Virus record (IMG/VR): IMGVR_UViG_2740892230_000032
Strand: one strand, 5' to 3'
DNA length: 33,311 bases
Source of the DNA: a virus
Lineage: Duplodnaviria > Heunggongvirae > Uroviricota > Caudoviricetes
This document shows positions 1 to 9,000 of this stretch, piece by piece. Made by a program: the position numbers. Position 1 is the first letter of the stretch, and each line of letters opens with the position of its first letter.

Positions 1-3000
1 ATGAAAGCAGCAAAAGGCGATGTTAATCACCCTGCTCATCTCTGTATTACCGTCATTGTGACGGCACTGATAACGAAGAAAGACCTCTGCAAGGGAGGAA
101 TCCCTCGCCACCTCTGATGTGTCAGGTATCCTCACCCTCCCCAATCACATTAGCCCCGCACTTCCGTACGGGGCCATTTCTGTTAATCCACTCCCACTTT
201 TTTGTTGTACTCGCGGTTAAACCGATCCACGGCAATTTTCATATCCCGCTCTACCGATTTCACCATCGCCGACTGTTGCGCCAGACTGAGAGTACTGTCG
301 GCGTAAATGGCATCACGCTGTTTACGCAAATCCTTCAGTCTCTTCCGGGTATCCTGCATAAGCCCGTTCATCGACAATTTTCCGTTGTTCTCGTCAATGA
401 ACGCCGTTCTTTCTGCGCCGGTCAGACTCTTCAGCTCTGCGTGATACTGCGCAACCTCTGTCATCCGGTCGTACATCTTCTGCTGGTCAACATACGGCAT
501 CACCTCACCTGAAATTTTCCCCAGGAAAGGCACCTGCTGTTCCGGTATATCAATACCGTTCAGCGATTTCACCGCCGCATCCGTGGTTTTGGAAATGAAG
601 CGCCCTGTACCACCAGAGATATAGTCCACCCAGTATTTCAGCGATTCCGGTGTGATATCCACCGCGCCTGAACGGTACTGGCTGCCACCTGAGAACGCAT
701 TCAGCCAGGATGCAAACGCCTTGTACGCTTCTGGCGTTGAACGTCTTCCCAGCTGGCTGTCAGGTTTTGGTGTACCAAACGGCATGTTCTCCTGGTAAAT
801 CTGCGCCCCCATGAAGTTTTCATTCATGGCAAGGTTCGCAAACGGACGCAGAATGGTCGGCGCTGCATTTTTCAGCAATGCCCCGGACAGTGTTTCCGAC
901 GTCTCACTGCCAATCGGGCTGAATGCACCAAGCACACCACCAACAACATTACCGGCAGCACGGGACGCCGTCAGGTCACCCGCCGCCACACCTTCAGCGG
1001 TATGCCCGAGCAGGAAGAAAACGTTGTACCCGTAAGGCAGAGGAATACTCCAGTACTCTCCGGCCTTGCCCCCGAACACCGATTTCATAATGACGAGGTT
1101 ACGCTCTTTCACATGAGACGGCACCTTGTCATACCAGTTAACCCCGTCATCATCCTCACCCGCCACGCTGCGGTTAAGCGAGCCAAGCAGATAACCTGCT
1201 CCCACAGCGGCAAGCGCGATTTTCTGCGGAACATTCAGATTCTTCCAGCGAAGGCGCTCCAGTAAAGGTCCCTCACCATTAAGATGTCCGAGCGTTCTCA
1301 CCAGATTTGCCGTTCCCTGAATGCTGGCGTTGGCGAACATGTACAGCGAGTTCATCAGCGCTCCCTGCTCACCACGACGGTTAAAGTTCACCGTCATGTT
1401 TTTGGCAAGAGACGCCGCCTGCTGGCGTGACAAACCGGCATCACGGGCGTGCTTATAGGCAGAAAGACGCAGAGCGTTTTCAACCGCACCGTTGGCATCC
1501 TCGACAAGGTTAAGGAACGAATTCCATGCACCGATACTCTGGCCTTTCCATCCCCCCTTCGCCAGTGAGACAAGGCGATCCATTTCCTTCTGCTGGCCTT
1601 CAAGGTCACCCATGTTAAACCAGCCGGTTTTCCCTCCGTCCTCAACAAACTCTTTCCACACCTTCTGCCACTGTGCACCTTTTCCCGTGAGGGTTTTACC
1701 ACGCAGACTGGCGTATACGGCTGACATGGCAGAACGGCTGTCTTTCACCACAGCCAGGGCGGATAAGTTATCCAGCCCTTTCAGTTTACCGTCGCTCCTT
1801 CCCTGCTCCGCCTTCAGGTTCATCACCGCCGTCTGCACGTCACGGATGAAGTTACTGACCAGGAATTCCGGGTTATACGACGTGTTCACCGTTGCCAGGA
1901 AGCGGTTAACTTTCCCCAGCGTACGAACAAAGGCATTGCTGGTTTCCGGTCCCATACTCTTCATCGCACGCATCAGGCGCGGATCATGGAGTTTGATGTA
2001 GTACGTTTTGCCGTTCTTTTTGGTGGTGAAGTACCGGTCTGCCATCATTGCCATCGGTACAGGGCGTTCGACAACTTCGCGAATGGTTTCACCAGTTTCC
2101 TGGTCCTTGCGCTCTGCAATCGTCCGCATGGTATCCGGTCTGTCATCGGTGAATACCTGCCAGTAATCCTTGTCGGGATTATCCTGCACCAGTTTCAGGA
2201 AGGCGTTACCCACTTCGTTTTTGCGATGGCGGATCAGCGATTCGCTCAGGTCCTGTATCGCCTGAGTGGACGGAGACTGTGCCCGGGATGCACGCCCCAT
2301 GGCCTGCCTGCTTTCACGTCCGCCGATGGTGAAGCCCTTACCTGTACGGGGCAGTGACACCACACCGTCAACATCCTGACCTTTCAGGGGAACGTAGTAA
2401 CGGTAGGCGTTCTGCCAGGCATCCACCACACCGTTCTCTTCAAGTCCGGCCTCACGGATAAGCTCACGGCGACGGGCCAGCATATCGTCAATAATCCCTG
2501 CCAGACGGTCATACTGTGCCTGTTTGCCACTGTTACGTACACGCTGCATGATTTCCGCCGCTTCCGCGTTGGTCATCCCCGAACCGCCGTCCGGCATTTT
2601 CGGGTTGATTTTCGCGATATGCGCGTTACGTTCCGGCGCGTGACGGGCGTAGAGGTACTCATCCAGATCGGCCTGCGCAATTTTGTAGTCCGCCAGTAAT
2701 TTAGCCAGTGGCTGAACGTAGCGCTCCTTCATCACGTTCAGGTCGTTTTCCGCCTTCCCGTGGAAGAGTTCTTCCGCCATATAAGCGTTGTTACTGTCGT
2801 CCACTTTGCCGCCAGTTTTACGGATATTCTCCTGAACAGCTTTCAGCACCTGGAATTTATCCTGCATCTGGCGCACAAAACGCGATGCAATTGTCTCTTC
2901 CGGTGTCAGACTGCTGGTACGGGAGTAATACGGCCCCTTGCGAATATCTTCAGGATAGAGTATTTTATCCGCAGAGCCGCGATAAGAATGTTCCCCTTTG

Positions 3001-6000: not shown

Positions 6001-9000
6001 TCAGGCAATGAGTTACGAACAGTTCGGGGAAGCTGATCAGGCTGAGGCATACGGACATTGTGTGTAATGTCCGGAGCCGGTAGCCCTTCACGTACCGGTG
6101 CTGTCGCGTTCTGCGCATCCGGTGACGGCAGACCACGACGAACCATTTCACCCTCGAGTGTTTCCCCCTGGCGACCAGCGGCGTTTTCCGGTGCCGGAGC
6201 TTGTCCTTTCTGGAAACTCTGGCCCTTAACCTCACCGGTTGTGGTAAAACGACCACCACGTCCGGCCTGATTTTCATCCGGCGTACGCGCCACTTCTCCC
6301 GGTAACGGATATCCCTGTCCGGGATGAATATCGCCGGGAGCGGGCAGGCGCGGACGCTCAGTTAACTCCTGTGCTGTCGGACCGGCATCACCTTCAGCCA
6401 TCTGTGAACGTACAAGCTCCTCCGCCGTCGGCGCGTTGCCACGGGCAAGGCGGGCCTGTACCTCCGTATCATCCCCCGTGAAACCACGGAATCGCGGGTC
6501 ACGCATGAACGCGGGCTGCTCCATCGGGTCAGCATCAGCAATACGCTCTCTGTCAGCCAGGGTGTTAATGGTTTCCGTTGCCACATCTTCAGAGAACGCA
6601 GGATTATCCATTTCAACGGCATACTGATTCTCGCCTTTCTTCACTACGGACGGTTTCAGGCCGGTGGCGGCGGCATTACGGAAAACATCACTCCCCATGG
6701 CGCTTTTCTCATCCGTGAAATAACGGTTGTCCGGGCGCACCTTCTCAATGCGTTCCGCTGGTCTGGACGCACCATTCCCGTTAATTTCAATGCGGACTTC
6801 ATTCGGGTCCCGGAACCGCACCGTCGGGTAAATGCTCCCGTTACCATCCTCCGCATTTTCAGGCTGTGACTGTGCTTCCGGCGTCACTTCCTGTTGTGGG
6901 CGAATGACTTCTCGTATTGCCTGAAACTGTTGTTCTTCAGTCTCGGTGCGCCCCTCTTTCTGGCTGAGTCTGCGGTATTCCTCAAGCAGTTCAGAACGCG
7001 GCTTCGCCTTCAGCTCATTCATCACAGCCTGTCGCTTCGTCTGTTCGTCCAGTTCATTCAACAACTGGCTGGCAGCTTCCCGGCGATGAGCTGCGGATGC
7101 GTCACCCTCTGTTGCCATATCCGCATCAGCATACTGCTCCAGAAGCTGCTCGCGATTCATGCCCTGCATGGATTCACGCTGCTGCGCCACCGGATCAACA
7201 GATTCTGGTTGCGGGGCTGCGTCGTCCTGCTGCACGGTTTCAGCATCACGCATGGCGGTTTCTTCTGCGGCCTGACGTCTGCCACGATATCCGGCAACCG
7301 CACCGAATGGAGCCCCCATCGCAGCACCAAGGGCAGCACCTTCGATCGTTGCGTCAGCCACGCCCTCCCATGGCGATACATCCATTCCGGCGGTCTCACG
7401 CAATGCCGTGTTTTCCTGATAGCGTGAATAGCCGCCCTGCGCCGCATTAATCGCCCCCTGTGCAGTGGCATTTCTGACAATGCCGCTTTTAACGGTCTTC
7501 GCTGTGCCTCGTGTCACCAGATTAAACAGTTGTGCGTCACCCAGTTTTGCCGCCATGGCATTCACAGCCAGCAATTCAGGATCGGTTGCCAGCTGCGCGC
7601 GCACCTCATCGGCAACACGCTCTTTTGCCAGATCCATTTTCTGGCGATCAGTAAGCTGTGCGTGCTGCGGGTCGGCGTCAATGGACAAAAACGTCTGCTG
7701 AAATTTCGGTGACTGCGCCAGCTCAGAGTAATCAGCATTAAGAACAGCATCTGCTGCCGCCATTGCACTCTGCCCCTGTGCACTTACAGTGGAATGGGTG
7801 ATCAGGCCCGCCTGGAATAAATCCGGCATTTTTTTATCGACAGCTTCTGCTGCCAGTGCCGTGGCTCTTTCCGGCTGCATCCCTGCCGCGATGTATTTTT
7901 TCTCCAGCCCGGCGGTCAGCATTTTTCGCAGTGTGACATCACCCACCTTTCTAGCCACACCGCCAGCAACCATATCAGGTACAAGCGCACCAATCAGGTT
8001 TACACCCTTCGCCACCCAGACCGCAGAATCATTATAGCCTTCGGTCATCGGCGTATTCAGCGCACGAACTGCACCCGGCGACATCTTACCGGTCAGCCAT
8101 TCATCAGTGGCTTTGGCACCATCACTGACAGCCTTACCGGTTGCCTTCAGACCTTTACCGACAGTATCAGTAACCGCGTTTTTGCCATCAGGCAGGGTAT
8201 CGATGACCTCATCAGCCCCCCTGCTGCCACCGGCAAAAATATCCTGCACAGTTGCGACACCCGGCAGCCCCATACGGCTAAACTCATTTAAAATACGCGC
8301 CCCTGTTTTTACCGGGCTCTGAATCATCGCATCACCGAGTCCACGGGCCATTTCCCCTGTTCCCCGGACGGACTGGGCGAAACCTTTACCCATTGTTGGC
8401 AATACATCGCCCAGGCTGAACGACGTACTGTTATCCTTCCAGCGATTCGGATCAGAGAAAAATGCTTCATAGCTGTCAGTTTCGCCGGGTTGCTGAATGT
8501 TCAGGCTGTTACGATTCTGGTTACCGAGTTGCGCCTCAGGACGCTGTTCCTCTGAATAGGCCATACAGACTCCATAAAAAAACCCGGCACAATGGCCGGG
8601 CATCAGGAAATGGTATTAATGGAATATCGTGAATTACTGGGCGTAATTCTGTTTCAGTCCACGGATAAACTGAGATGCAGATGAAGCACTTTCATCTCTG
8701 GCCTGTTCCCCCCTGGCCTTTTGAATACGGAGAAAATTCGCATACCCGTTCTCCAGCAATTTCTGATTCTGAGGTTCCAGCATTTCAGGCTGACGGGCCG
8801 CTACATTTCTGGCAAATGACAGCTTATCAGGATCATCTCCCGCCCAGTTGATAACCTGTTGCTGAAGTTTTTGTTGCTGAATTTTCTGTTGATGCGGTTG
8901 TGAACCAGTCGCAGCATAATATTCATCCACCGCAGCCTGAGCATTACCGCCATTCTTGATCGCGTCCGCCGCTACGTTGCTGGCCCCCTTCTGAAGCTCT

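What the first reader, a model, noticed from the sequence alone, without database searches (positions are those of the whole stretch)
183..8564. Giant 2793-aa ORF at the end of the late operon, with an HExxH motif and a long low-complexity linker
An uninterrupted 8.4-kb reading frame is the last gene of the morphogenesis cluster, after lom and hok, and is preceded by its own terminator, RBS and start. Its composition is modular: a Gly/Ala-rich N-terminal third, a Pro/Glu/Gln-rich linker, a region containing LAHEWFHS, and a C-terminal region with no motif I recognise. It lacks a P-loop. Its position argues against a tape-measure protein, because the tail fibre and tail genes lie upstream and no tube or sheath genes are present. 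It may be an internal or ejected virion protein, possibly a multi-domain effector of the kind described as polyvalent proteins. I cannot assign a function from sequence alone, which makes it the most interesting coding feature here.
Basis: partly seen in the sequence, partly recalled or inferred. Interest (0 to 1): 0.75.

Follow-up and report, generated by a model that had tools for sequence, protein, structure and literature searches.

The report
Giant injected protein of Shiga-toxin phages
The 8.4-kb gene is real, but it is the already known, essential 2,793-residue virion protein of short-tailed Shiga-toxin phages: a cysteine-free, multi-domain "polyvalent" protein that is packed in the head and most likely ejected into the bacterium with the DNA.

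Summary
The ORF exists as described: window 183..8564, minus strand, 2793 aa, with its own terminator, RBS and ATG. The window is a short-tailed Stx-converting phage. The gene is 99.8% identical to P13374 ORF78 and 99.1% to Sp5 ORF80/ECs1242.

It is not a new object. Sp5 genetics showed it is essential. Pfam places LPD5, LPD1, MuF_C and LPD38 in it. A 2026 preprint found the phi24B orthologue gp47 in virions and proposed an ejection protein.

My analysis refines the anatomy:
- An N-terminal module is homologous to the lipid-binding N-terminal domain of the phage N4 virion RNA polymerase.
- A low-complexity linker follows it.
- A cassette is colinear with ~570-aa solo "LPD5" proteins and ends in a CLCA_X-type zincin built around LAHEWFHS.
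- MuF_C is a predicted RNase-like domain, not a metallopeptidase.
- A ~900-aa helical C-terminal module has no solved structural relative. It is conserved at the C-terminus of giant virion proteins in Vibrio, Ralstonia and Burkholderia podophages.

The protein and 95 relatives almost completely lack cysteine, as do the ejection proteins of N4 and T7. Novelty is low.

The parts
183..8564 (-). Giant gene, 2793 codons plus the TAA stop; orthologue of Sp5 ORF80/ECs1242, P13374 ORF78 and phi24B gp47
   Evidence: ORF list and translation. 99.8% nucleotide identity to P13374 and TL-2011c, 99.1% to VT2-Sakai; full length in 186 phage records. Full-length match to phrog_616.
8582..8601 (-). Intrinsic-terminator-like hairpin (7 bp, 6 GC, T7 tail) between the upstream gene and the giant gene
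   Evidence: Consensus scan and sequence. That late transcription reads through it by Q antitermination is my inference from lambdoid phage biology.
8570..8573 (-). GGAG ribosome-binding site, seven bases before the ATG at 8564
   Evidence: Sequence read.
7215..8267 (-). N-terminal module, aa ~100-450. It is Gly/Ala-rich with two amphipathic hydrophobic stretches (aa 180-208 and 402-425) and is homologous to residues ~230-446 of the N4 virion RNA polymerase N-terminal domain
   Evidence: It sits at the N-terminus of dozens of 2000-4665-aa giants. 10 of 15 members hit phrog_2206 'virion RNA polymerase', best E 5e-10. HMM against N4 gp50 gives E 2.7e-7. hhalign gives 88.8% probability, E 2.5e-6. 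The real score of 31.9 bits exceeds all 2000 shuffles, whose maximum is 16.2.
5955..7214 (-). Low-complexity Pro/Glu/Gln/Ala-rich linker, aa ~451-870; the least conserved part. Indel columns among close relatives lie at aa ~701-900 and ~1101-1300.
   Evidence: Composition. Identity to the 58%-identical homologue P0362 falls to 18-31 per 100 aa here, and there are indel columns among close relatives.
4965..5954 (-). Front of the 'LPD5 cassette', aa ~871-1200: a pre-LPD5 domain (~aa 900-1050) plus Pfam LPD5 (aa 1051-1200)
   Evidence: Pfam LPD5 at E 7e-45. The pre-LPD5 module recurs in giants and at the N-terminus of ~570-aa solo proteins. Colinear alignment with 57 solo proteins.
4230..4964 (-). 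Zincin-like metallopeptidase domain 1, aa ~1201-1445, including Pfam LPD1 (aa 1361-1440). Conserved residues: H1263, H1284-E1285-x-x-H1288, D1291, E1375, E1382
   Evidence: NCBIfam CLCA_X covers aa 1182-1437 at E 8e-44, model positions 3-245 of 250. These residues are invariant or nearly so in 58 sequences. The AF2 topology is helix, three strands, then the HExxH helix.
3555..4169 (-). Zincin-like domain 2, aa ~1466-1670, of the HExxxH type. Conserved residues: H1551, E1552, H1555/H1556, E1607, E1614
   Evidence: It has separate homologues, for example the Vibrio phage D62 giant at 32% identity. The residues are invariant in 26 diverse sequences, and most relatives read HExxxH. Only sub-threshold zincin hits were found.
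3045..3482 (-). MuF_C domain, aa ~1695-1840 (Pfam hit aa 1750-1839); a PBECR-type predicted RNase fold
   Evidence: Pfam MuF_C at E 1.3e-17, 64 bits against a cut-off of 27.6. Iyer 2017 classifies MuF-C as a PBECR predicted RNase. AF2 gives local pLDDT 80-89 with an alpha+beta arrangement and a four-stranded sheet.
186..2903 (-). C-terminal module, aa ~1888-2793, including Pfam LPD38 (aa 2476-2681); a large, mostly helical domain
8634..9899 (-). Upstream 421-aa gene (Sp5 ORF79); a probable partner, also cysteine-free
   Evidence: Essential, with the same phenotype as the giant gene, in Sp5. A ~420-530-aa gene directly precedes the giant gene in the Vibrio, Ralstonia and Burkholderia phages. 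The JC1 counterpart gp68 is a virion protein. 0 Cys. The partnership itself is inferred.

Best explanation
This is the giant encapsidated ejection protein of short-tailed Stx phages, and it belongs to the 'polyvalent protein' class.

SHOWN by others: the protein is essential for plaque formation and lysogenisation. It is not needed for DNA packaging or for normal-looking heads. It is present in purified virions but invisible in the symmetric and asymmetric maps.

SHOWN here: it is a string of modules with conserved ends. The order is an N4-type N-terminal module, a low-complexity linker, an LPD5 cassette ending in a CLCA_X-type zincin, a second HExxxH zincin-like domain, a MuF_C (predicted RNase-like) domain, and a ~900-aa helical C-terminal module. 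Relatives keep the two ends and swap the middle. The whole family almost lacks cysteine, as do the N4 and T7 ejection proteins.

INFERRED mechanism:
1. A few copies are packed in the head as loosely folded beads on a string.
2. After the tail needle is released, the chain is threaded through the portal and tail channel.
3. The N-terminal module inserts into or binds the host membrane, as reported for the N4 domain, and helps form or anchor the DNA conduit, probably together with the 421-aa upstream protein.
4. The linker spans the envelope.
5. The enzymatic middle refolds inside the cell, where the zincin domains most likely cut the polyprotein itself and MuF_C may act on host RNA.
6. The conserved C-terminal module is the part needed for incorporation at the portal. 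That would explain why the deletion mutant fails to keep a tail.
For: Identity with the known gene.

Literature:
- Essential, complementable, packaging-proficient, no tail-fibre labelling: PMC5155283.
- Found in phi24B virions and absent from the map: bioRxiv 10.64898/2026.04.10.717836.
- The homologous giant gp69 and the upstream gp68 are in JC1 virions: PMC9144972.
- N4 model of a lipid-binding N-terminal domain, a low-complexity linker, cargo, an HExxH domain and a ~110-kDa helical domain without structural relatives: PMC13434306.

- Polyvalent domains.
- N-terminal module at the N-terminus of giants, with N4 homology.
- C-terminal module always at the extreme C-terminus, with variable cargo (ART, methyltransferase, InPase, RadC, SLT, helicase).
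- Zincin 1. Zincin 2.
- Cysteine: 0 of 2793 here, against 1.05% in the other window proteins (P about 1.5e-13). 0 in the Vibrio, Ralstonia and Burkholderia giants. 23 in 263,356 residues of 95 giants. 0 in N4 gp50, gp51 and gp52 and in T7 gp15 and gp16, while other T7 proteins have 0.5-2.3%.
Against: - Ejection into the cell has not been shown for this protein or for any close relative; only virion association has.
- The tail-less phenotype of the deletion mutant is not what loss of ejection proteins gives in P22 or T7 (my knowledge of those systems). A direct structural or assembly role may therefore be primary.
- There is no classical transmembrane helix; the best 19-residue Kyte-Doolittle mean is 1.38.
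- The zincin fold is not confirmed structurally. The central model has pLDDT 61.8 and the best Foldseek E-value is 0.19.
- The C-terminal module shows no homology to the N4 C-terminal domain (hhalign 0.3%), so its proposed role in incorporation is by analogy only.
- Self-cleavage has never been observed.
Confidence: 0.72

Rival explanations
1. It is a tail-assembly factor that works during morphogenesis, possibly as an AAA+ ATPase (the Sp5 authors' suggestion), and is not delivered into the host.
For: The deletion mutant packages DNA and makes normal heads, but anti-tail-fibre antibody does not bind. The authors also reported a COG1483 hit.
Against: There is no Walker A motif. Pfam, NCBIfam and PADLOC give no ATPase hit. 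The protein is abundant in finished virions. The N-terminal module is shared with the ejected N4 polymerase. The cysteine-free composition matches ejected proteins. A structural role at the portal is compatible with the main explanation, so this rival covers only the 'not ejected' version.
Confidence: 0.1
2. It is an ejection protein whose metallopeptidase digests peptidoglycan to open the way for the conduit (the phi24B preprint's version, which calls MuF-C the metallopeptidase).
For: Two HExxH-type domains exist. The Stx giant lacks the SLT transglycosylase that the Ralstonia and Burkholderia relatives carry at the N-terminus, so some other wall-breaching activity would be welcome.
Against: MuF_C is not a metallopeptidase; Iyer 2017 classifies it as a PBECR predicted RNase. 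Both zincin-like modules also occur in a 4665-aa giant (P0390) that I take to be Bcep-like from its size; this was not verified. The SLT domains were found in BcepIL02 gp70 and Ralstonia YL1. If P0390 is indeed Bcep-like, the zincins are not a replacement for SLT. The zincin-1 cassette also exists as a ~570-aa stand-alone protein. The family is predicted to process polyproteins. There is no similarity to known peptidoglycan peptidases.
Confidence: 0.12
3. It is a dispensable anti-defence effector (DarB-like antirestriction) carried in the head only to protect incoming DNA.
For: PHROG matches to 'DarB-like antirestriction' families over aa 2351-2681 and in N-terminal-module relatives. The polyvalent-protein concept points the same way.
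Against: The gene is essential on laboratory K-12. It has no methyltransferase or helicase domain. The match to 'DarB-like' families is to their shared C-terminal and N-terminal modules, not to the DarB enzymes.
Confidence: 0.04
4. It is a tape-measure protein or an assembly or sequencing fusion artefact.
For: Size alone.
Against: The phage is short-tailed and has no tube or tape-measure chaperone genes. The protein is absent from the tail structure. The ORF is intact in 186 phage records and in thousands of E. coli genomes. None of the scaffold N-runs lies inside it.
Confidence: 0.01

Closest known systems
Sp5 ORF80 (ECs1242), phi24B gp47 (the 933W L0134 CDS lies under a 511-aa segment match, aa 1190-1700, 98.8% identical), P13374 ORF78
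   Same: The same gene. Nucleotide identity is 99.8% to P13374/TL-2011c and 99.1% to VT2-Sakai over the full length; identity to phi24B and 933W was measured only on the aa 1190-1700 segment (98.8% at protein level). It has the same position as last gene of the late operon and the same 2793-aa product.
   Different: Nothing material. Annotated starts differ (2793, 2806 or 2811 aa).
Polyvalent proteins of phages and conjugative elements (Iyer, Burroughs, Anand, de Souza, Aravind 2017, PMC5512222)
   Same: Several unrelated domains in one polypeptide, encoded among virion genes, with zincin metallopeptidase hubs plus LPD5, LPD1, LPD38 and MuF-C.
   Different: This one is essential rather than accessory. 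It carries no recognisable anti-restriction enzyme. It has conserved terminal modules that the 2017 survey did not define as a chassis.
Phage N4 virion RNA polymerase gp50 (PMC13434306)
   Same: A giant, cysteine-free virion protein that is invisible in maps. It has a homologous N-terminal module, then a low-complexity linker, cargo, an HExxH domain and a ~100-kDa helical C-terminal domain with no structural relatives.
   Different: There is no RNA polymerase domain. The C-terminal module is not detectably homologous. There are two zincin-like domains and a MuF_C domain instead.
Bcep22, BcepIL02 and JC1 'DarB-like' giant virion proteins and their Ralstonia Gervaisevirus counterparts
   Same: Last gene of the late operon, preceded by a ~500-aa virion protein. 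They share the C-terminal module at 27% identity and the N-terminal module. JC1 gp69 is virion-associated.
   Different: Those carry an SLT transglycosylase, a methyltransferase and a helicase. The Stx protein is a shorter version without them.
CLCA_X zincin family (Lenart et al. 2013, PMC3650047; NCBIfam NF041907)
   Same: aa 1182-1437 match nearly the whole model. HExxH is followed by a conserved Asp. The family is found mostly in phages and plasmids.
   Different: The score of 150 bits is below the NCBIfam whole-protein cut-off of 260. Here it is one domain of a 2793-aa protein.
T7 gp14, gp15 and gp16 and P22 ejection proteins
   Same: Internal head proteins of podophages that leave before the DNA and build the trans-envelope conduit. 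T7 gp15 and gp16 are also cysteine-free.
   Different: No sequence or fold similarity was found. This is one giant chain instead of three proteins. The Stx protein has no SLT domain.

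Membership tests
Polyvalent proteins (Iyer 2017) | Two or more unrelated domains fused in one large polypeptide | tested here: met
   LPD5, CLCA_X/LPD1 zincin, HExxxH domain, MuF_C and LPD38.
Polyvalent proteins (Iyer 2017) | Encoded with virion or late genes of a phage | tested here: met
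   It is the last gene after the tail-fibre genes and lom.
Polyvalent proteins (Iyer 2017) | Delivered into the host with the DNA | not testable with these tools
   Only virion presence is documented, for phi24B gp47.
Zincin metallopeptidase, phage-type MPTase / CLCA_X (domain 1) | Conserved HExxH on a helix, plus a downstream Glu on a second helix | tested here: met
   H1284, E1285, H1288, E1375 and E1382 are invariant in 58 sequences. The motif lies in predicted helix 1282-1295.
Zincin metallopeptidase, phage-type MPTase / CLCA_X (domain 1) | His at the end of strand 2 and Asp three residues after HExxH (Iyer's phage-type variant) | tested here: met
   AH1263YEP is invariant and D1291 is at least 90% conserved.
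Zincin metallopeptidase, phage-type MPTase / CLCA_X (domain 1) | Curated family score | tested here: not met
   NF041907 scores 150 bits against a cut-off of 260, although E is 8e-44 and 243 of 250 model positions are covered. Pfam MPTase-PolyVal gave no hit.
Zincin metallopeptidase, phage-type MPTase / CLCA_X (domain 1) | Zincin fold (N-terminal helix, three-stranded sheet, two helices) | tested here: inconclusive
   The predicted secondary-structure order fits, but the model has pLDDT 61.8. The best Foldseek hits are zincins (MATCAP, ColH, IrrE/PprI) at E 0.19-1.8, which is not significant. A PDB profile search found nothing.
HEXXXH variant MPTase (domain 2) | Conserved HExxxH plus a downstream acidic ligand | tested here: met
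   H1551, E1552, H1555 and E1607 are invariant in 26 sequences. About 50 of 53 relatives read HExxxH; the Stx lineage reads HEIIHH.
HEXXXH variant MPTase (domain 2) | Significant profile or fold match to a zincin | tested here: inconclusive
   Only sub-threshold Pfam hits: M76 at 0.1, MATCAP at 0.011, M48 at 0.019, each in 1-3 of 26 members. There is no PDB hit.
MuF_C / PBECR predicted RNase | Pfam PF18819 above the gathering score | tested here: met
   64.2 bits against 27.6, E 1.3e-17, aa 1750-1839.
MuF_C / PBECR predicted RNase | BECR-like alpha+beta fold | tested here: inconclusive
   The model has helices then a four-stranded sheet, with pLDDT 80-89. RelE-like hits 2otr and 7vd7 reach TM 0.46 but E is above 2.
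N4-like virion RNA polymerase | Homologous N-terminal (membrane-binding) domain | tested here: met
   phrog_2206 hits in 10 of 15 relatives. HMM E 2.7e-7. hhalign 88.8%. 0 of 2000 shuffles reach the real score.
N4-like virion RNA polymerase | Single-subunit RNA polymerase domain | tested here: not met
   No polymerase family in Pfam or NCBIfam. The PHROG match to phrog_2206 is confined to profile positions 222-600.
N4-like virion RNA polymerase | Homologous C-terminal domain | tested here: not met
   HMM scores are negative and hhalign gives 0.3%.
P1 DarB antirestriction protein | Adenine methyltransferase plus SF2 helicase | tested here: not met
   Absent here but present in BcepIL02 gp70.
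T7 gp16-type ejection protein | N-terminal lytic transglycosylase (SLT) | tested here: not met
   No SLT hit here. SLT is present in the Ralstonia and Burkholderia relatives.
AAA+ ATPase (COG1483, as reported for Sp5 ORF80) | Walker A P-loop | tested here: not met
   There is no GxxxxGK[ST] and no ATPase family hit.
Tape-measure protein | Long-tailed phage with tube and chaperone genes; protein inside the tail tube | tested here: not met
   Podovirus gene set. The protein is not in the tail structure.

The most novel reading that the evidence does not exclude
The Stx giant is the minimal member of a widespread protein-injection chassis of podophages. The chassis has four elements:
- an N4-type membrane-binding N-terminal module;
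- a disordered linker;
- a swappable enzymatic middle;
- a ~900-aa C-terminal module of a fold not yet seen in any solved structure, which docks the chain at the portal and is needed for the tail to stay on.

On this reading, near-total avoidance of cysteine is a selectable signature of proteins that must cross the periplasm unfolded. It could be used to find ejected proteins in any phage genome.
Probability: 0.4. Interest if true: 0.6.

Novelty: already known. Interest (0 to 1): 0.35.

Why it matters
Short-tailed Stx phages spread Shiga toxin genes among E. coli, and this one gene takes up about 14% of their genome. It is essential, yet its mechanism is still open. The 2026 cryo-EM preprint lists "how is gp47 organised in the capsid" among its unanswered questions.

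The domain map given here makes that question testable with point mutants and truncations. It comprises the N4-like N-terminal module, two separate zincin-like domains with named ligand residues, an RNase-like MuF_C and a conserved C-terminal module. It also corrects two published labels: the AAA+ ATPase assignment and the description of MuF-C as a metallopeptidase.

The finding itself, that a giant multi-domain ORF exists and is probably an internal virion protein, is a rediscovery.

Tried and rejected
- A full-length homologue search returned only proteins at least 96% identical, so it gave no diversity. I switched to profiles built from distant phage homologues.
The central region was therefore modelled with a shallow 28-sequence alignment and came out with low confidence.
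- Foldseek with the central model gave nothing significant.
- PDB sequence and profile searches for the whole protein, the LPD5 cassette, zincin 2, the N-terminal module and the C-terminal module all came back empty.
- PADLOC gave no hit.
- Pfam on isolated unannotated segments gave only noise.
- tblastn with an N-terminal-module relative found a single phage record, from Aeromonas.
- Three giants chosen to look for N4-like polymerases turned out to be DarB-type.
- The hosted hhalign of the C-terminal profile against the N4 C-terminal domain failed. I reran it locally and it was negative.
- Rfam found no RNA family in the window, including hok/sok.
- A Xanthomonas podophage preprint had nothing relevant.
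- I rejected the tape-measure, AAA+ ATPase, DarB enzyme, RNA polymerase and fusion-artefact readings. The reasons are in the membership table.

Full report
**1. The observation**

The window holds one outstanding reading frame. It runs on the minus strand from the ATG at 8564 to the TAA at 185-183 and encodes 2793 codons. The next-longest ORF is 730 aa. The chance of 2793 stop-free codons is about (61/64)^2793, or roughly 1e-58.

A terminator-like hairpin with a run of seven T lies at 8601..8582 on the same strand. GGAG follows seven bases before the ATG. An in-frame ATG at 8603, used in the RefSeq record of P13374 to give 2806 aa, sits inside that hairpin and is the less likely start.

- a Gly/Ala-rich first ~500 residues;
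- a Pro/Glu/Gln-rich stretch to about 900;
- LAHEWFHS starting at H1284;
- no Walker A motif.

- a second motif, LRHEIIHHAMEH, at 1551;
- the complete absence of cysteine;
- about five ORFs that separate the Hok-like ORF and lom from the giant gene.

The window is a scaffold with nine 10-N gaps, but none lies in this ORF.

**2. What it is**

The window is a short-tailed Stx-converting phage (Sepvirinae). The ORF is 99.8% identical at the nucleotide level to P13374 and TL-2011c and 99.1% to VT2-Sakai (Sp5). It is full-length in all 186 matching phage records. One protein cluster alone has 4186 members in E. coli genomes. It is therefore not a sequencing fusion.

The gene has a literature.
- In Sp5 it is ORF80/ECs1242. 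A deletion abolishes plaques and lysogenisation, is complemented in trans, still packages DNase-resistant DNA and makes normal-looking heads, but anti-tail-fibre antibody no longer binds (PMC5155283).
- In phi24B the orthologue gp47 was found by mass spectrometry in purified virions and is absent from the cryo-EM model. The authors proposed an ejection protein (bioRxiv 10.64898/2026.04.10.717836).
- Pfam places LPD5 (aa 1051-1200), LPD1 (1361-1440), MuF_C (1750-1839) and LPD38 (2476-2681) in it, all above threshold. These families were defined in the polyvalent-protein survey of Iyer et al. 2017 (PMC5512222).

**3. Anatomy, from N- to C-terminus**

*(a) N-terminal module, aa ~100-450.*
- An exhaustive search of 1.84 billion representatives with aa 1-1050 gave 348 hits. 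This module recurs at residues ~100-480 of dozens of proteins of 2000-4665 aa.
- Ten of fifteen diverse members hit the PHROG family "virion RNA polymerase" (best E 5e-10), and nine hit the Bcep22-type "DarB-like" family.
- A profile of the module matches residues 231-446 of phage N4 gp50 (E 2.7e-7 for that single target).
- hhalign gives 88.8% probability and E 2.5e-6.
- The real score of 31.9 bits exceeds all 1000 global shuffles and all 1000 local-block shuffles, whose maximum is 16.2. The match is therefore not a composition artefact.
- In N4 this region is the lipid-binding N-terminal domain. It has predicted membrane helices at 224-278, can be put into nanodiscs, and is followed by a 100-residue low-complexity linker (PMC13434306).
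- The Stx module has two conserved Gly/Ala-rich amphipathic stretches (aa 180-208 and 402-425) but no classical transmembrane helix.

*(b) Linker, aa ~451-870.* This is the least conserved part; indel columns among close relatives lie at aa ~701-900 and ~1101-1300.

*(c) LPD5 cassette, aa ~900-1445.* This stretch is colinear with whole ~570-aa stand-alone "LPD5 domain-containing proteins". Its last 250 residues match the NCBIfam CLCA_X model over 243 of 250 positions (E 8e-44). CLCA_X is a phage and plasmid zincin family linked to the CLCA metalloprotease by profile comparison (PMC3650047). The following are conserved in 58 sequences:
- AH1263YEP;
- H1284-E-W-x-H1288 and D1291;
- R1357 and D1362;
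- E1375 and E1382.

This is exactly the phage-type variant that Iyer et al. describe, with a His at the end of strand 2 and an Asp three residues after HExxH. Pfam LPD1 is therefore the C-terminal half of this peptidase domain.

*(d) Second zincin-like domain, aa ~1466-1670.* It has its own relatives, for example the Vibrio phage D62 giant at 32% identity. About 50 of 53 homologues read HExxxH, while the Stx lineage reads HEIIHH. H1551, E1552, H1555 and E1607 are invariant. This is Iyer's HEXXXH variant. Statistical support for a zincin relationship is weak: there are only sub-threshold Pfam hits to M76, MATCAP and M48.

[quoted passage not shown] The phi24B preprint's label "MuF-C metallopeptidase" is therefore probably a slip. 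The metallopeptidase candidates are domains (c) and (d).

*(f) C-terminal module, aa ~1888-2793.*
- It is 41% identical to the extreme C-terminus of a 3066-aa protein of Vibrio phage D62.
- It is 27% identical to those of Ralstonia phage YL1 (3168 aa) and BcepIL02 gp70 (4667 aa).
- Each of these is the last gene of its late operon and follows a 420-530-aa gene.
- In metagenomes the module is joined to ADP-ribosyltransferase, methyltransferase, InPase, RadC and other cargo. The Ralstonia and Burkholderia proteins add SLT, methylase and helicase domains.

**4. Structure tests**

It reached pLDDT 61.8. Both HExxH motifs fall on helices preceded by a helix and three strands, as in zincins. MuF_C is alpha+beta with a four-stranded sheet and local pLDDT 80-89.

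The top Foldseek hits are of the expected kinds but none is significant:
- MATCAP, collagenase ColH and IrrE/PprI for the peptidase domains;
- RelE-like toxins for MuF_C.

So the zincin assignment of domain 1 rests on family membership and invariant ligands. Domain 2 rests on motif conservation. Neither rests on a confirmed fold.

**5. Cysteine**

- The giant has 0 Cys in 2793 residues, while the other 25 ORFs of the window average 1.05% (P about 1.5e-13).
- The Vibrio, Ralstonia and Burkholderia giants also have none.
- 120 C-terminal-module homologues have 27 Cys in 150,152 residues.
- 95 representative giants have 23 in 263,356 residues.
- N4 gp50, gp51 and gp52 have none.
- T7 gp15 and gp16 have none and gp14 has one, whereas other T7 proteins have 0.5-2.3% and T7 RNA polymerase has 12.

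The Iyer paper does not mention cysteine. I read this as an independent compositional mark of proteins that leave the capsid through a narrow channel and cross the oxidising periplasm.

**6. Mechanism**

Shown:
- the protein is essential;
- it is encapsidated;
- it is modular with conserved ends and a variable middle;
- it is cysteine-free;
- its N-terminal module is shared with an ejected protein.

Inferred:
- A few copies lie in the head as beads on a string.
- On needle release the chain is threaded out.
- The N-terminal module engages the membrane and helps to build or anchor the conduit, probably with the 421-aa upstream protein. That protein is also essential, is cysteine-free, is syntenic in all four phage groups, and has a virion-associated counterpart in JC1.
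- The enzymatic middle refolds inside the cell.
- The zincins most plausibly cut the polyprotein.
- The C-terminal module mediates incorporation at the portal, which would account for the tail-less deletion phenotype.

The terminator in front of the gene probably ends lom and hok moron transcripts in lysogens, while Q-modified polymerase reads through it. This is an inference from lambdoid biology.

Points against:
- Ejection itself has not been demonstrated.
- The tail-less phenotype is unlike that of P22 or T7 ejection-protein mutants.
- Self-cleavage has not been observed.

**7. Rivals**

- An assembly ATPase is unlikely, because there is no P-loop and no ATPase family hit.
- A purely accessory DarB-like effector is contradicted by the gene's essentiality and by the absence of methylase and helicase domains.
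- A peptidoglycan-cutting metallopeptidase is not excluded but has no positive evidence. Both zincin-like modules were found in a 4665-aa giant (P0390) that I take to be Bcep-like from its size, unverified, while SLT domains were found in BcepIL02 gp70 and Ralstonia YL1.
- The tape-measure and artefact readings are excluded.

**8. Verdict**

- the N4 link of the N-terminal module;
- the delineation of two zincin-like domains with named residues;
- the correction of the MuF-C and AAA+ labels;
- a confident model of a C-terminal module with no solved relative;
- the family-wide cysteine avoidance.

Noticed in passing
window 10275-10284, 11721-11730, 17523-17532, 27469-27478, 29049-29058, 31833-31842, 32230-32239, 32436-32445, 33128-33137: There are nine runs of exactly 10 N, so the window is a scaffolded draft. 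The gap at 11721-11730 is flanked by a near-duplicate stretch (VCTGSNSVERYLPEVKTLT[H/R]LAGGRWAEF appears twice in the 166-aa ORF 11530..12030). This looks like an assembly join artefact.
   Followed up: partly
window 8634-10783, minus strand: The three ORFs just upstream of the giant gene (150 aa, 83 aa and 421 aa) are also cysteine-free, giving four consecutive Cys-free ORFs at the end of the operon. Only the 421-aa one is unlikely by chance (P about 0.012). The sizes recall the N4 gp52-gp51-gp50 ejection operon.
   Followed up: partly
window 9910-10161, minus strand: The 83-aa 'bacteriocin' homologue carries a glycine-zipper motif (Pfam Gly-zipper_YMGG, E 9e-6, just below cut-off). The phi24B preprint detected a 'homolog of a bacteriocin' in virion preparations and set it aside as a contaminant. 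It could instead be a small membrane-active virion protein.
   Followed up: no
window 12087-12227, minus strand: A Hok/Gef-like 46-aa peptide (MPQKTIIVSILCITILMIVWMIHNSHCEFRL...) lies downstream of lom. Rfam found no hok/sok RNA family at gathering threshold anywhere in the window.
   Followed up: partly
window 15466-17169, minus strand: The 567-aa ORF matches only positions 314-859 of the 862-position PHROG 'internal virion protein' profile. The scaffold gap at 17523-17532 lies just upstream, so the gene may be cut or mis-joined here.
   Followed up: no
window 18539-20731, minus strand: The local GC content is 65% with strong skew. The region encodes the collagen-repeat tail fibre (Sp5 ORF67), which has 0 Cys in 730 aa.
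   Followed up: no
proteins P0310-P0347 (solo LPD5 family), alignment A8: Many ~570-aa stand-alone LPD5-zincin proteins end in a conserved acidic-aromatic tail...PGPSDTPDF[DE]WC, with a terminal Cys. It might be a targeting or docking signal. The tail is absent from the Stx giant.
   Followed up: no
window 153-174, minus strand, just after the stop codon: A 6-bp GC hairpin (GCCCCG ... CGGGGC, with a 10-nt loop) follows the TAA of the giant gene but has no T-run. The terminator scan did not call it.
   Followed up: no
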